Positions 219 through 43,458 of a stretch of 64,000 bases of DNA are shown here, piece after piece. The notes below the pieces were generated by a model. The model searched no databases, was not told the origin of the DNA, and saw nothing but the letters and a program-made list of their open reading frames with translations. This DNA is from a virus (lineage: Duplodnaviria; Heunggongvirae; Uroviricota; Caudoviricetes). The translations under genes were made by a program, and so were the position numbers. The DNA is taken from IMG/VR virus record IMGVR_UViG_3300006201_000003, positions 95-64,094 of that record. One strand, 5' to 3'. Positions within the stretch are counted from its first letter, which is position 1. Each line of letters opens with the position of its first letter.

Positions 219-560
219 ATCGCCCGATTGAGATAACATATCACGTGTGTGAGTGGCGCACGGAATCCAAGGTGGCCTCCAGCGATGGAGTGACTGGGCG
301 TAAAAGAAATAGCGGTTAGGTGCCGTTGTAGCACCAAAGGTAGGCTGAAATCTGTCTGGGCCATAGCCGCAAGTATGGTGTGCTTGTTACATCGAAATCC
401 TTGGTAGACTTTGACGGGAAACACAAATCCCCCTGCTCCTCAATAGAAAGGCTGAAAGGACTACAGCTTTGCATATGAAGCTGAGTTGTGGTGGTAATAT
501 GGCACAGCGTAAAGGCGTGTGGTGAGGCTGGGAGTGGAGTCACTTTTACAACATACATAT
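219..560 (+). ncRNA. Candidate large structured ncRNA between tRNA-Thr and tRNA-Tyr (family unassigned)
   Basis: About nine short helices, GNRA tetraloops (GCGA 282-285, GCAA 369-372), possible pseudoknot CCAAGG 267-272/CCTTGG 399-404, no RBS-led ORF. Confidence 0.6.
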
Positions 561-649
561 AGGGGAGCGCCGAAGTCGGAGAGTCGGGGCGGTCTGTAAA
601 ACCGTTGCGTTTATGCGCTGAGTGGGTTCGACTCCCACCTCCCTTACCA
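561..649 (+). tRNA. trnY: tRNA-Tyr(GTA)
   Basis: Anticodon arm GCGGT-CTGTAAA-ACCGT, long variable arm, T arm GTGGG-TTCGACT-CCCAC, encoded CCA. Confidence 0.92.
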
Positions 650-652
650 TAT

Positions 653-745
653 GGCGGAATTGACCCCAGTAGGTGCGGGGAGCAGTCTTGAAAACTGTTG
701 GCCGTGATGAGCGGCTTGTGGGTTCGAGTCCTACTTCCGCCGCCA
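653..745 (+). tRNA. trnS: tRNA-Ser(TGA)
   Basis: Acceptor GGCGGAA/TTCCGCC, anticodon loop CTTGAAA, long variable arm GGCCG..CGGCT, encoded CCA. Confidence 0.95.
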
Positions 746-814
746 CGGAACATCTTCGTAGTCCCGATAGAACGTACAGCTCTGGCCCGGAGTACATACG
801 AGGAAGGGCAAATT

Positions 815-882
815 TGAGACACGTACAGCAATTTGTTTGACTCCAAAATCAAACCCTGACCGTCAAATCAGGTAGTGTCTCA
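815..882 (+). ncRNA. tRNA-like element lacking a D arm, Trp-like anticodon loop
   Basis: 8-bp closing stem TGAGACAC/GTGTCTCA; GTTTGA-CTCCAAAA-TCAAAC arm; CCTGA-CCGTCAAA-TCAGG arm; no CCA end. Confidence 0.55.
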
Positions 883-891
883 TATACATAT

Positions 892-967
892 GCGCCAGTA
901 ATTCAGCTGGTAGAATAACCGCCTTTTAAGCGGTAGGTCGAAGGTTCGAGTCCTTTCTGGCGCACCA
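892..967 (+). tRNA. trnK: tRNA-Lys(TTT)
   Basis: Acceptor GCGCCAG/CTGGCGC, anticodon arm ACCGC-CTTTTAA-GCGGT, T loop TTCGAGT, encoded CCA. Confidence 0.95.
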
Positions 968-986
968 TGAAATATTATAACGACTG

Positions 987-1020
987 AAACCTCAGCGATT
1001 TTAAGCCGCTGAGGTTTTGT
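987..1020 (+). terminator. Rho-independent terminator closing the tRNA cluster
   Basis: 11-bp stem AAACCTCAGCG/CGCTGAGGTTT followed by T residues. Confidence 0.75.
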
Positions 1021-37058: not shown

Positions 37059-37271
37059 GCGATGCGAGGTCAAATGGAGTAACTTCGGTGAAAGACGACC
37101 TTCGCAAAAGGAGAAATACTTCCCTGGCTTTTGCCTAAAACTGCCCTTCGACGGCTCTACACGGACGCTGCTTGCATGGCGGGCTATTGCGCTAACCCGT
37201 TCCATGTGTCGAGCCAAAGTAGTTTAGATGCGCACCAACAAAACAACTATGCGGAGGAGCGAATACTTTCT

Positions 37272-38435
37272 ATGACAAGTGAAGAGCGCCACGAGGCGCG
37301 ATATCGCCGCCGAAAGGCCAAGCGGTTGGCGAATAAACGAAAAAGAAGCGAAGCGGTAGGAACTCTGGAGGATATCTTCAACTACCGTGATATGTTCTTT
37401 TATGGCAAAAAATGCTGCAACGGTGTACGTTGGAAGCAAAGCACTCAAAACTTTGAACTCCATCTGTTTTCTGGTACGGCAAGACGGCGGAAGCAGATTT
37501 TAGACGGAAAGTGGAAACCGAAAAATTGCGTCCACTTTACTCTACGTGAACGTGGTAAGGTTAGACCGATTGATGCACCTCACATTGAAGACCGACAAAT
37601 TCATAAGGTGGAGAGCAATAAGGTTTTGATTCCGCTTTATACCCCAAGCATGATCCACGATAACGGAGCAAGTCAGAAGAACAAAGGACTTCATTGGCAT
37701 TTCCATCGTATGAAAGAACAGCTTGGATGGCATTATAGGCGTTATGGTAGAAGTGGTGGAATCCTTCTGTTGGATTTGAAGAGTTTCTTTCCAAGCGCAA
37801 ATCGTAGTATCATCTATGAGCGGCATAAGCAAATGATGTTTGATGATAGGGTGCGGGCTTTTGCAGATGCGGTTGTAACATATGCCCCAAGTACAGCACC
37901 TGGTCGTGGTATGCCCCTTGGTGTGGAGCCGAGTCAACAGGAAATGGTTGCGCTACCAAGTGCGGTTGATAACTACATTAAGTGCCAACTTGGAATCCAT
38001 TGTGCTGGACATTATATGGACGATTACTATATTATTCTTCCAGACATTGAAGAGTTAAAGAAAGTCGGCCATGATATTGTCGATAAGTTCATTGAGTCTG
38101 GTATTCCAGTCAATAAGAAGAAGTGTAAAATCATTCCTTTGACAAGGCCGTTTCGCTGGTGTAAGGCAAGATTTACATTGAAAGAAAATGGCAAGATTAC
38201 TGTGAATGGAAATCGTGCGGGCATGAAGAGTGCAAGGCGTAAACTGAAACTCTTCCAGCGTGAATATATTGCTGGAAAGCGGACGTTGGCCGAGATTGAT
38301 CAGTTTATGGAAAGTCAAACGGCGTATTACAGAGGCTATAATGACCATGGCCGTCTATTGAGGTTGCGCCGTTTACACTACGCTTTATTCAACAAATATC
38401 GTATTCAAGAACAGCAAGGAAAACAAGTTGCATAA
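37272..38435 (+). CDS. brt: DGR reverse transcriptase
   Basis: GMPLGVEPSQ and HYMDD RT motifs; start MTSEERH after GGAGG (ORF track extends to 37131). Confidence 0.93.
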   Translation: MTSEERHEARYRRRKAKRLANKRKRSEAVGTLEDIFNYRDMFFYGKKCCNGVRWKQSTQNFELHLFSGTARRRKQILDGKWKPKNCVHFTLRERGKVRPIDAPHIEDRQIHKVESNKVLIPLYTPSMIHDNGASQKNKGLHWHFHRMKEQLGWHYRRYGRSGGILLLDLKSFFPSANRSIIYERHKQMMFDDRVRAFADAVVTYAPSTAPGRGMPLGVEPSQQEMVALPSAVDNYIKCQLGIHCAGHYMDDYYIILPDIEELKKVGHDIVDKFIESGIPVNKKKCKIIPLTRPFRWCKARFTLKENGKITVNGNRAGMKSARRKLKLFQREYIAGKRTLAEIDQFMESQTAYYRGYNDHGRLLRLRRLHYALFNKYRIQEQQGKQVA

Positions 38436-43340: not shown

Positions 43341-43458
43341 GCTGGAAAGTGAATAAAAGTACAATTTGGTTTGGCGAATGAGGTTGGAAATGGCTCCCGA
43401 CACTCCAGCAATGGAACCTGAGATGCAGGATATGCCGCCCTGCTATTCGCCAAATATC

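What the first reader, a model, noticed from the sequence alone, without database searches (positions are those of the whole stretch)
815..882. D-armless tRNA mimic carrying a Trp anticodon in an 8-nt loop
Seen: an acceptor-like 8-bp stem (TGAGACAC/GTGTCTCA) encloses a single-stranded GTACAGCAATTT in place of the D arm. It then has an anticodon-like arm whose loop CTCCAAAA is the real tRNA-Trp loop (CTCCAAA) plus one A, and a T-like arm CCTGA-CCGTCAAA-TCAGG. There is no variable loop and no CCA. The stems are perfect, which suggests selection rather than decay. Inference: a decoy or competitor for host anticodon nucleases or other tRNA-binding defence proteins, a processing signal, or a degenerate tRNA. 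The 8-nt loop resembles +1 frameshift suppressors, but the element probably cannot enter translation.
Basis: partly seen in the sequence, partly recalled or inferred. Interest (0 to 1): 0.72.

Follow-up and report, generated by a model that had tools for sequence, protein, structure and literature searches.

The report
Phage Y-like RNA with tRNA-like body
The "armless tRNA" is real, but it is one of six copies of an unannotated small-RNA family (closing stem, then single-stranded CAGCAA, then a variable, often tRNA-like body) that travels with a Ro60-like ring protein in gut phages, so it is most likely that protein's partner RNA, not a Trp-specific tRNA decoy.

Summary
Window 815-882 folds as the three-way junction described (MFE -19.2 kcal/mol, z -3.7), and ARAGORN and Rfam do not call it a tRNA.

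The interpretation needs re-centring. The strand read as "in place of the D arm" (GUA-CAGCAA-UUU), together with the closing stem, is the conserved signature of a family. The same 138-kb phage genome has five more copies. Two of them lie directly upstream of a DUF2828/DUF7788 gene whose predicted fold matches Ro60 (TROVE ring plus vWA), followed by RNA-repair genes.

- A covariance model built only from other phages' copies scores the element at 30.7 bits (E about 1.6e-5). It is the only significant hit in the window.
- In 80 loci with DUF2828 homologs, 202 of 220 same-strand descriptor hits lie within 2 kb upstream of the gene.
- 63 loci of unrelated phages gave no model hit, and three bacterial genomes agree on co-occurrence.
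- Anticodon-arm mimicry is a selected trait of the family (47 of 119, against 3.4 after shuffling).
- The "Trp" loop is not conserved. The closest relatives have CUUCAAAA, with a compensatory G-C to A-U change in the stem.

I found the family neither in Rfam nor in the papers searched. This scan has noted it before on other DNA. Binding, processing and function remain inferred.

The parts
815..882 (+). The whole element (E1), a 68-nt small-RNA gene of the stem-plus-CAGCAA ('CAGCAA-handle') family
   Evidence: Fold. Model R1, built from other phages only: 816-881, 30.7 bits, E 1.6e-5, the only significant hit in the window. The ortholog in L003 scores 32.9 bits.
815..822 (+). 5' strand of the closing stem (UGAGACAC); it pairs with 875-882
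   Evidence: Fits the family consensus RRGRCRC. Paralogs carry UGAGACGC, UGGGACGC, UGGGACAC and GGGGCAC with matching 3' strands. Invariant among the three ortholog versions.
823..834 (+). Single-stranded handle: 3-nt spacer GUA, CAGCAA, then UUU
   Evidence: Unpaired in the MFE structure. Family logo: spacer U/A-A/C-A, CAGCAA, then U-rich. The spacer GUA occurs in 4 of 119 members. Invariant among ortholog versions.
835..854 (+). Anticodon-arm look-alike: 6-bp stem with the 8-nt loop CUCCAAAA
   Evidence: Relatives have AUUUGA/CUUCAAAA/UCAAAU, a compensatory G-C to A-U change plus a loop change. Other phages' members use the same UUUGA/UCAAA stem with the loops CUUGAAA or CUUUUAA.
855..872 (+). 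T-arm-like hairpin: 5-bp stem with the 8-nt loop CCGUCAAA, not a canonical T loop
   Evidence: One relative version has CUGUCAAA and loses the closing A-U pair. Some family members carry true T arms such as GGUUCAAAUCC.
875..882 (+). 3' strand of the closing stem (GUGUCUCA)
746..810 (+). Flanking conserved hairpin between tRNA-Ser and the element. In the closest relatives the ~150-nt block B RNA lies between this hairpin and the element.
   Evidence: Fold. Conserved in L003-type relatives, with wobble-compatible changes in the stem.
892..967 (+). tRNA-Lys(UUU), 9 nt downstream. Its 5' processing would set the element's 3' side (inferred).
   Evidence: ARAGORN and Rfam.
988..1016 (+). Terminator-like hairpin (10-bp stem, 9-nt loop, followed by a U-rich run) that ends the RNA array before the first protein gene
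   Evidence: Read directly from the sequence. The simple scan did not list it, because it accepts loops of 3-8 nt only.

Best explanation
Window 815-882 is a gene for a ~66-68-nt non-decoding small RNA of a phage 'CAGCAA-handle' family. A 7-8-bp stem joins its two ends. Directly 3' of the 5' stem strand lies a single-stranded spacer-CAGCAA-U-rich strand. The rest is a variable body, here an anticodon-arm look-alike plus a T-arm-like hairpin. The RNA is made as part of the long tRNA-array transcript and is probably cut out by the tRNA-processing nucleases. The stem plus CAGCAA is the likely docking site for the phage's Ro60-like ring protein (DUF2828/DUF7788), which is encoded about 45 kb away next to two more copies and an RNA ligase / nucleotidyltransferase / kinase cassette. 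By analogy with Ro60-Y RNA particles, the RNA would gate or tether that protein. The tRNA-like body would either make the RNA look like a tRNA to processing and modification enzymes, or direct the particle to tRNA-related substrates, for example during host attack on tRNAs. Shown here: the structure, conservation with a compensatory change, family membership, the genomic link to the DUF2828 gene, and the Ro60-like fold of that protein. Inferred: transcription and processing, protein binding, and the biological role.
For: Structure.
Orthologs: three versions; the handle is invariant, there is a compensatory G-C to A-U change, and the loop varies.
Paralogs: five more copies in the genome's RNA islands. 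The 14-nt signature occurs 5 times against 0.10 in shuffles.
Membership: model R1, built from 98 elements of other phages, scores the element at 30.7 bits, E 1.6e-5, and the paralogs at 33.6-49.1 bits.
Link to the protein: two paralogs lie directly upstream of a DUF2828+DUF7788 gene, followed by RNA ligase, RlaP and a kinase.
Across 80 loci with DUF2828 homologs (56-98% identity): 220 hits on the gene's strand against 19 on the other, 202 of them within 2 kb upstream, in 77 of 80 loci.
Among CAGCAA occurrences, a flanking stem of 7 bp or more is present in 38% upstream of the gene and 5.4% elsewhere (odds ratio 11, p 1.6e-47).
No model hit in 63 loci of unrelated phages.
Two bacterial assemblies with PF11443 have all 7 model hits on the same contig as the gene, and a third has neither.
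Protein fold: AlphaFold model pLDDT 78.8. The top 13 Foldseek PDB matches are full-length Ro60/TROVE structures, E 3e-9 to 1e-3. DxSxS is invariant in the C-terminal domain.
tRNA mimicry is a family trait: 47 of 119 against 3.4 +/- 1.8.
Precedents: Y RNAs encoded beside Ro60 in bacteria and phages contain tRNA-like domains (PMC4201824). Thermus phage phiLo Ro60 binds two small RNAs encoded upstream of its gene (PMC12135203).
Against: This copy lies in the main tRNA array, not beside the DUF2828 gene. It is the lowest-scoring of the six copies and has a rare spacer (GUA) and an atypical 8-nt loop.
The protein does not match Pfam TROVE even at E 10, and the fold match is moderate (TM 0.45-0.60).
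Many of the 80 loci come from related phages, so the counts overstate the number of independent events.
The more distant relatives of this phage carry different hairpins at this site that the model does not recognise, so this particular copy is young or dispensable.
Confidence: 0.7

Rival explanations
1. A free-standing tRNA decoy. The RNA acts on its own as bait or competitor for host anticodon nucleases or other tRNA-binding defence proteins, and its link with the Ro60-like protein is incidental.
For: Anticodon-arm mimicry is clearly selected in the family, and the displayed triplets are diverse. This copy lies among tRNAs, far from the protein gene. The phage carries RNA-repair genes, which suggests that tRNA damage matters to it.
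Against: The most conserved parts are the stem and the CAGCAA strand, not the tRNA-like body. About 60% of members show no canonical anticodon-like arm. This copy has an 8-nt loop that changes between near-identical phages. The tight, strand-specific placement upstream of DUF2828 is left unexplained.
Confidence: 0.12
2. A processing or spacer element: a structured 'punctuation' hairpin that only helps RNase P, Z or E to cut the polycistronic tRNA transcript, or that protects the 5' leader of tRNA-Lys.
For: All six copies in this genome lie shortly before a tRNA or tRNA-like sequence, separated by an A/U-rich spacer ending in AUAU or UUAU.
Against: In most of the 80 loci the copies stand in tandem directly before a protein gene, not before tRNAs. 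A mere spacer would not need an invariant single-stranded CAGCAA or anticodon-like loops. Relatives manage with unrelated hairpins before the same tRNA-Lys.
Confidence: 0.07
3. A selfish or regulatory DNA/RNA repeat: a miniature inverted-repeat element, or a cis-acting attenuator of DUF2828 expression, of which this is a stray copy.
For: It has terminal inverted repeats, several dispersed copies and a variable interior. Most copies lie in the leader of one gene.
Against: The orientation is strictly strand-specific (220 against 19). There is no target-site duplication at 815/882. The stems covary rather than being copies of one sequence (31 distinct 5' strands). Copies sit inside tRNA operons far from the gene.
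Confidence: 0.05
4. A decaying tRNA pseudogene, for example a degraded duplicate of tRNA-Trp.
For: The loop equals the tRNA-Trp loop plus one A. It lies in a tRNA array.
Against: All four stems are perfect. There is a compensatory change between relatives. Outside the 8-mer it shows no similarity to tRNA-Trp, and the tRNA model finds nothing at E up to 10. A model built from non-tRNA elements of other phages recognises it.
Confidence: 0.03

Closest known systems
Bacterial and phage Ro60 (Rsr) with Y RNAs of the YrlA type (Rfam RF02553; Chen et al. 2014, PMC4201824), and Thermus phage phiLo Ro60 with Yrl1/Yrl2 (PMC12135203)
   Same: Small RNAs whose two ends form a stem, encoded next to (mostly upstream of) a ring-shaped TROVE+vWA protein gene, several per genome, with tRNA-like modules. 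The neighbourhood holds RNA-repair genes, much as Chen et al. mention RtcB at the rsr locus. The protein's predicted fold matches solved Ro60 structures over its full length.
   Different: YrlA does not match at threshold: the only weak YrlA hits (17.8-28 bits, gathering score 69) lie over tRNAs. The protein is DUF2828/DUF7788 and fails Pfam TROVE. The conserved RNA signature is a single-stranded CAGCAA next to the stem, not the bulged helix of animal Y RNAs or the CGAA motif used for phiLo. In YrlA the tRNA-like domain has D and T arms. Here the closing stem takes the acceptor position, an anticodon-like arm is displayed, and there is no D arm.
Dictyostelid Class I RNAs (Rfam RF01414; Kjellin et al. 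2021, PMC7919456; pattern in PMC5054030)
   Same: The same design in the authors' own words: about 60 nt, a short stem joining the 5' and 3' ends, a conserved unstructured 11-nt motif next to the 5' stem strand, and a variable remainder. The published pattern is GTTGRC-CTTACAGCAA ... GTCAACTG. The element has ACGUACAGCAA, 9 of 11 identical, and the family consensus is C-U(A/C/U)A-CAGCAA.
   Different: The Rfam model does not reach its threshold. The best hit in this genome is 17.5 bits, against a gathering score of 41.5, on a paralog, and the element itself gives no hit. Class I RNAs are reported only in Dictyostelia, are made from single genes with a DUSE promoter, and their reported partner is an RRM protein, Rnp1A. 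Whether the likeness reflects common descent or convergence was not tested.
Phage T4 stable RNAs C and D (species 1 and 2) in the T4 tRNA cluster (from my own knowledge; not checked in a paper here)
   Same: Non-tRNA small RNAs embedded in a phage tRNA operon and released with the tRNAs; function unknown.
   Different: No sequence or structural relation was tested or is expected, and no link to a Ro60-like protein is known.
D-armless mitochondrial tRNAs
   Same: An acceptor-like stem, a connector in place of the D arm, an anticodon arm and a T arm.
   Different: ARAGORN's mitochondrial mode does not call the + strand. The loop has 8 nt, there is no variable region, 2 nt separate the T-like arm from the 3' strand, and there is no CCA. 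The 'connector' is a family signature that is also found in members without any tRNA-like body.

Membership tests
Canonical tRNA (Rfam RF00005) | Cloverleaf with a D arm, recognised by tRNA finders | tested here: not met
   ARAGORN gives no call. The Rfam tRNA model gives no match at E up to 10 over 1-1100.
Canonical tRNA (Rfam RF00005) | 7-nt anticodon loop, 7-nt T loop of the UUCRANY type, and a discriminator/CCA or a site for its addition | tested here: not met
   Both loops have 8 nt. The T-like loop is CCGUCAAA. 2 nt separate the T-like arm from the 3' strand, and no CCA follows.
D-armless (mitochondrial-type) tRNA | Called by a D-armless-aware finder on the strand of the array | tested here: not met
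   ARAGORN -mt and -mtmam call only the reverse strand, with a 4-nt anticodon.
CAGCAA-handle RNA family (unnamed; defined here by model R1) | A 7-8-bp stem joining the two ends, with covariation among members | tested here: met
   8 perfect pairs. The paralogs' stems differ at two positions with matching partners. There are 31 distinct 5' strands among 119 members.
CAGCAA-handle RNA family (unnamed; defined here by model R1) | A 3-nt spacer, then single-stranded CAGCAA and a U-rich run, directly 3' of the 5' stem strand | tested here: met
   GUA-CAGCAA-UUU, unpaired in the MFE structure. It fits the logo, although the spacer GUA is rare (4 of 119).
CAGCAA-handle RNA family (unnamed; defined here by model R1) | A significant score with a covariance model that holds no sequence of its own clade | tested here: met
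   30.7 bits, E 1.6e-5. The next hit in the window scores 12.7 bits, E about 1.
CAGCAA-handle RNA family (unnamed; defined here by model R1) | Encoded in a genome that has a DUF2828 (Ro60-like) gene, typically within 2 kb upstream on the same strand | tested here: inconclusive
   The genome encodes the protein, and two paralogs sit directly upstream of it. This copy lies about 45 kb away in the main tRNA array, as do three other paralogs.
Y RNA / YrlA (Rfam RF02553) | Match to the YrlA covariance model (D- and T-arm-like domain plus a Ro60-binding stem) | tested here: not met
   No YrlA match at the element. The weak YrlA matches elsewhere lie over tRNAs and far below threshold.
Y RNA / YrlA (Rfam RF02553) | Bound by a Ro60-family protein | not testable with these tools
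   The complex predictor offered takes no RNA. This needs pull-down, EMSA or a structure.
Dictyostelid Class I RNA (Rfam RF01414) | Short terminal stem, an 11-nt motif next to the 5' stem strand, about 60 nt, variable remainder | tested here: met
   Design as stated in PMC7919456. The motif CCTTACAGCAA is in PMC5054030, and the element shares 9 of 11 positions. Its length is 68 nt.
Dictyostelid Class I RNA (Rfam RF01414) | Score at or above the family's gathering threshold | tested here: not met
   No match at the element at E up to 10. The best in the genome is 17.5 bits against 41.5, on a paralog.
Ro60 / TROVE protein (for the putative partner, L137:6288-7847:-) | Match to Pfam TROVE (PF05731) | tested here: not met
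   No match at E up to 10 in a six-frame search of the genome. The protein matches PF11443 and PF25043 instead.
Ro60 / TROVE protein (for the putative partner, L137:6288-7847:-) | Helical-repeat ring followed by a vWA domain with a MIDAS motif | tested here: met
   Model pLDDT 78.8, pTM 0.74. The top 13 PDB matches are full-length Ro60 structures (9kop, 9l5y, 2nvo, 9nen, 1yvp and others), followed by vWA domains. D299, S301 and S303 are invariant.

The most novel reading that the evidence does not exclude
The CAGCAA-handle RNAs are interchangeable 'cartridges' for a phage Ro60-like ring. One constant handle docks on the protein, while the variable body displays a particular tRNA anticodon arm. 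A phage with six such RNAs could then aim an RNA-repair or RNA-decay particle at, or bait host nucleases away from, specific tRNAs. This copy would be a fast-evolving cartridge (CCA or UCA type, 8-nt loop). The near-identity of the handle with that of Dictyostelid Class I RNAs would then point to the long-sought function and partner type of that orphan eukaryotic RNA class.
Probability: 0.2. Interest if true: 0.85.

Novelty: new variant of a known kind. Interest (0 to 1): 0.68.

Why it matters
Ro60-Y RNA particles are known from animals, some bacteria and a few phages, but their roles in microbes are still unclear. This genome shows a second, sequence-distinct version of that theme. The ring protein is annotated only as DUF2828, a family with thousands of protein clusters. 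Its small RNAs are missed by tRNA finders and by Rfam, and public gene calls even lay a false ORF over them.

Recognising the handle lets these RNAs be annotated in gut-phage tRNA islands. It explains why such islands are full of "odd tRNAs". It also gives a testable link between phage tRNA mimicry, RNA-repair enzymes and host attack on tRNAs. The close match of the handle to Dictyostelid Class I RNAs, reported as unique to social amoebae and without a known mechanism, suggests a concrete experiment for that open question.

For this particular element, the practical lesson is that the eye-catching "Trp anticodon" is the least conserved part. The dull-looking single strand is the part that matters.

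Tried and rejected
1. Exact 20-mer of the anticodon-like arm in viral contigs. Apart from the window's own type, the two other matches (L026, L028) lie inside a coding region of unrelated contigs and are chance.

2. The loose structural descriptor alone on the genome (stem of 7 or more, spacer 3, CAGCAA) gave 9 hits against 5.2 +/- 2.6 in shuffles, so it does not discriminate by itself. The candidates at genome 96526-96592, 132359-132480 and 20943-21006 were not recovered by the model, and I treat them as chance.

3. Pfam TROVE in the genome: no match.

4. phmmer of the DUF2828 protein against PDB sequences: nothing meaningful.

5. The single-sequence structure prediction was unusable (pLDDT 38.7).

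6. Expression. Runs on record as RNA hold contigs only over the flanking tRNA-Ser and tRNA-Lys, at 90-99% likeness, so from relatives or conserved tRNA parts. Only a run that is probably DNA spans the element. Contigs cannot show RNA ends. This is no evidence for or against transcription.

7. I first suspected the element to be the 3' domain of block B, the ~145-nt RNA that precedes it in close relatives. I rejected this because B occurs in 87 viral contigs with quite different 3' neighbours and closes on its own stem, and the element survives without B in the window.

8. Rfam at E up to 10 gave nothing for the element, hairpin A or block B.

9. The hairpins at the same site in more distant relatives (before tRNA-Lys in the L004 and L019 types) share a GUAUCAG or GAUCAGCAA word, but the model does not recognise them. 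I could not decide whether they are decayed copies.

10. The promoter/terminator scan lists the T-like arm as a minus-strand terminator-like site. No minus-strand gene feeds into it, so I disregard it.

Full report
**Context.** The window is bases 95-64094 of a complete 138,206-bp IMG/VR phage genome with terminal repeats. It opens in the middle of a tRNA array: part of tRNA-Asp, Trp(CCA) 66-139, Thr 143-218, a 340-nt gap, Tyr 561-649, Ser(UGA) 653-745, a 146-nt gap that holds the finding, and Lys(UUU) 892-967. A terminator-like hairpin (988-1016) follows, and then the first packaging-region gene (1044-2015, Pfam YonG_N by precomputed hits). In the whole genome the array starts at about 135.1 kb, behind a TTGACA-17-TATAGT promoter-like site that I read in the sequence printed. 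It runs across the record's ends.

**The observation.** RNAfold returns exactly the proposed three-way junction as both MFE and centroid: -19.2 kcal/mol, z -3.72, and 1 of 200 dinucleotide shuffles as stable. The 8-nt loop CTCCAAAA equals the loop of the array's own tRNA-Trp plus one A. The element is not a tRNA by any finder:
- ARAGORN in bacterial mode and the Rfam tRNA model (E up to 10) find nothing.
- ARAGORN's D-armless mode calls only the reverse strand, with a 4-nt anticodon.

**Orthologs.** I used the downstream gene as an anchor, its 90% protein cluster and a metagenome pattern scan. This recovered three versions of the element in near-identical phages.
- The window type has GUUUGA/CUCCAAAA/UCAAAC.
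- Two other types have AUUUGA/CUUCAAAA/UCAAAU. One of them also has CUGUCAAA and loses one A-U pair in the T-like arm.

So the stem is kept by a compensatory G-C to A-U change. The "Trp anticodon" is not kept. The closing stem and the single strand 815-834 are invariant.

Both non-window types also carry about 150 extra bases directly 5' of the element. This "block B" is conserved after tRNA-Phe in all more distant relatives. It also occurs behind tRNAs in 87 viral contigs, many of about 40 kb, and in three Clostridia assemblies. It has a consensus fold of 34 pairs, 15 of them with compensatory changes, and it has no Rfam match at E up to 10. Block B closes on its own stem and has unrelated 3' neighbours elsewhere, so the element is not part of it. 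The window lineage has simply lost B.

**The turn.** Notes from earlier work in this scan mention phage tRNA islands holding small RNAs with a "stem plus CAGCAA" signature beside a Ro60-like protein. They liken these RNAs to Dictyostelid Class I RNAs. The element reads stem-GUA-CAGCAA-UUU, so I tested this lead independently.

1. The same genome has five more copies with almost the same closing stem: genome 136648-136707, 136709-136808 and 137285-137348 on the plus strand in the main array, and 95220-95285 and 94570-94623 on the minus strand. The 14-nt signature GR[CG]RC-NRA-CAGCAA occurs 5 times against 0.10 in 100 shuffles, always in RNA islands. The element differs from it only in its spacer, GUA. 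The interiors differ completely between copies, and the closing stems differ at two positions with matching partners.

2. The two minus-strand copies, a tRNA-Ser(GCU) and two tRNA-shaped sequences that contain UAACAGCAA or UACAGCAA form a second RNA island directly upstream of a gene for a DUF2828+DUF7788 protein (about 520 aa). That gene is followed by a class-V aminotransferase, an RNA ligase, an RlaP-type nucleotidyltransferase and a P-loop kinase, and is preceded by an SPFH protein.

3. The protein does not match Pfam TROVE or any PDB sequence. With an alignment of 46 homologs, its AlphaFold model (pLDDT 78.8, pTM 0.74) matches Ro60 over its full length. The top 13 Foldseek hits are Thermus phage phiLo Ro60, D. 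radiodurans Rsr, and human and frog Ro60 (E 3e-9 to 1e-3, TM about 0.45-0.60). Isolated vWA domains follow. A DxSxS motif is invariant.

**Association test.** I fetched 80 viral loci that encode DUF2828 homologs of 56-98% identity, from phages of 60-170 kb.
- The descriptor (stem of 7 or more, 3-nt spacer, CAGCAA) hits 220 times on the gene's strand and 19 times on the other.
- 202 of the same-strand hits lie within 2 kb upstream, and 77 of 80 loci have at least one.
- To avoid circularity I asked, for every CAGCAA, whether a flanking stem exists. The answer is 38% upstream of the gene against 5.4% elsewhere (odds ratio 11, p 1.6e-47). CAGCAA itself is 7.5 times denser there.

The 119 distinct elements have a median length of 60 nt. 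Their consensus is RRGRCRC | U-A/C-A | CAGCAA | U-rich, with 31 different 5' stem strands. Many of these loci come from related phages, so these counts are not independent events.

**Membership test.** A covariance model (R1) built from 98 of these elements, excluding this phage's clade, scores window 816-881 at 30.7 bits, E about 1.6e-5. It is the only significant hit in the 64-kb window. The five paralogs score 33.6-49.1 bits, and the L003 ortholog scores 32.9 bits.
- 63 loci (about 570 kb) of the ~40-kb block-B phages give no hit at E 0.01 or better.
- In three whole bacterial assemblies, the two that have PF11443 hold all 7 model hits, on the same contig as the gene. In each, one hit lies about 2 kb upstream on the gene's strand.
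- The third assembly has neither the gene nor any hit.

**The tRNA-like body.**
- 47 of 119 distinct members have a 5-bp stem closing a 7-nt Y-U-NNN-R-N loop, against 3.4 +/- 1.8 when the interiors are shuffled.
- 67% of all 5-bp/7-nt hairpins obey that rule, against 9% expected from base composition.
- The displayed triplets are diverse: UGA 10, UUU 8, UGG 7, CAU 5, UUG 3, GAU 3 and others. None is CCA.
- Some members also carry true T arms.
- Members of other phages use the same UUUGA/UCAAA stem as this element, with the loops CUUGAAA or CUUUUAA.

The element therefore belongs to the tRNA-like subtype. Its closing stem takes the acceptor position, the handle takes the place of the D arm, and an anticodon-like arm and a degenerate T-like arm follow. 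Its 8-nt loops are unusual, since only 4 other members have an 8-nt Y-U loop.

**Comparison with known systems.**
- *Ro60 with Y RNAs.* Chen et al. 2014 report likely Y RNAs beside Ro60 in more than 250 bacteria and phages, each species with a tRNA-like domain. The phiLo study shows a phage Ro60 binding two small RNAs encoded upstream of its gene, and it proposes that the phage hijacks the host's PNPase. The present system has the same logic but different parts. The protein is DUF2828, the signature is CAGCAA, YrlA does not match at threshold, and the tRNA mimic has a different topology.
- *Dictyostelid Class I RNAs.* Their design is described as a short stem joining the ends, an unstructured 11-nt motif next to the 5' stem strand, about 60 nt, and a variable remainder. 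The published pattern is GTTGRC-CTTACAGCAA...GTCAACTG, and the element shares 9 of the 11 motif positions. The Rfam Class I model nevertheless stays far below threshold: best 17.5 against 41.5 bits, on a paralog. So this is a likeness of design, not a demonstrated membership.
- *Literature.* The papers I could search mention DUF2828 only in passing, in plant and animal gene lists. This scan's own notes hold 193 entries on the same family in other genomes. My tests here agree with them.

**Mechanism.**
- *Shown:* a conserved, structured, multi-copy RNA family with an invariant handle; tight, strand-specific linkage to a Ro60-fold protein gene next to RNA-repair genes; and selected anticodon-arm mimicry.
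- *Inferred:* the element is transcribed with the tRNA array and is trimmed by tRNA-processing enzymes, since it lies 9 nt before tRNA-Lys. Its handle docks on the Ro60-like ring. The particle acts on tRNA-related or damaged RNAs.

I could obtain no expression data. The RNA-library contigs cover only the flanking tRNAs.

**Verdict.** The element is not a Trp decoy or a decayed tRNA. It is an outlying, fast-evolving member of an unannotated Y-RNA-like family.

Noticed in passing
L003:2615-2770 (+); also L029-L118 and L116-L118; absent from the window: 'Block B': a ~145-nt structured RNA, usually directly after a tRNA 3' end, in 87 viral contigs (many ~40-kb phages) and 3 Clostridia assemblies. 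Its consensus fold has 34 pairs, 15 of them with compensatory changes. No Rfam match at E up to 10. It shares a GGGUCGCUCCC hairpin with the ROOL/GOLLD-like region of the main array. The window lineage has deleted it cleanly between hairpin A and the element.
   Followed up: partly
window 219-560: A 340-nt ORF-free gap between tRNA-Thr and tRNA-Tyr with no Rfam match. A gap of similar length sits at the same place in relatives (for example about 345 nt in L004). It is possibly another unannotated structured RNA.
   Followed up: no
L137:8411-8566 (-) and L137:8905-9010 (-), genome about 94.4-95.0 kb, outside the window: Two tRNA-shaped sequences that ARAGORN does not call. One has perfect acceptor, D and T arms, but a ~63-nt insert containing CAC-UAA-CAGCAA replaces the anticodon arm. 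The other has a T arm and an acceptor-like end with ACAUACAGCAAUC inside. They look like chimeras of a tRNA body and the CAGCAA handle.
   Followed up: partly
L137:1540-7898 (-), genome about 87.5-93.9 kb, outside the window: Downstream of the Ro60-like gene lies a cassette of class-V aminotransferase (cysteine-desulfurase-like), RNA ligase with a PHA02142 OB domain, RlaP nucleotidyltransferase and an AAA_33/KTI12-like kinase. An SPFH/Band-7 protein and a small coiled-coil protein lie upstream. Together these look like an RNA-repair island.
   Followed up: partly
window 37065-37280 and 43373-43451: Rfam matches above threshold to RT-2 RNA (167 bits, beside a reverse-transcriptase ORF; another note on this window describes a DGR there) and to skipping-rope RNA (71 bits).
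   Followed up: no
L004:2469-2545 and equivalents in L005-L011 and L019-L023: The relatives' tRNA-Phe(GAA), absent from the window, has an unusual T loop (AUCGUUA in place of UUCRANY), an odd D loop and an encoded CCA.
   Followed up: no
L020 (=L101), between block B and tRNA-Lys: An ORF that looks like a GIY-YIG homing endonuclease, interrupted by in-frame stops, is inserted exactly after block B and replaces the hairpins found there in sister contigs.
   Followed up: no
window 316-852 (-): A 178-aa minus-strand ORF runs across tRNA-Tyr, tRNA-Ser and part of the element. Public gene calls list a 150-171-aa product there with no Pfam hit. It is almost certainly a false gene call over RNA genes.
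   Followed up: partly
L025:1-216 and 435-858; L003:1-127: The relatives' main arrays hold ROOL RNA and a tmRNA (Rfam, above threshold). The own genome shows the tmRNA 5' end sequence at about 135.99 kb. The array thus mixes some 20 tRNAs, tmRNA, ROOL and at least four CAGCAA-handle RNAs.
   Followed up: partly
genome 1-77 and 138130-138206: The 77-bp 'direct terminal repeat' of the record is exactly one tRNA-Glu(UUC) gene. The repeat may therefore mark a circular or permuted assembly joined inside the tRNA array, not a physical genome end.
   Followed up: no
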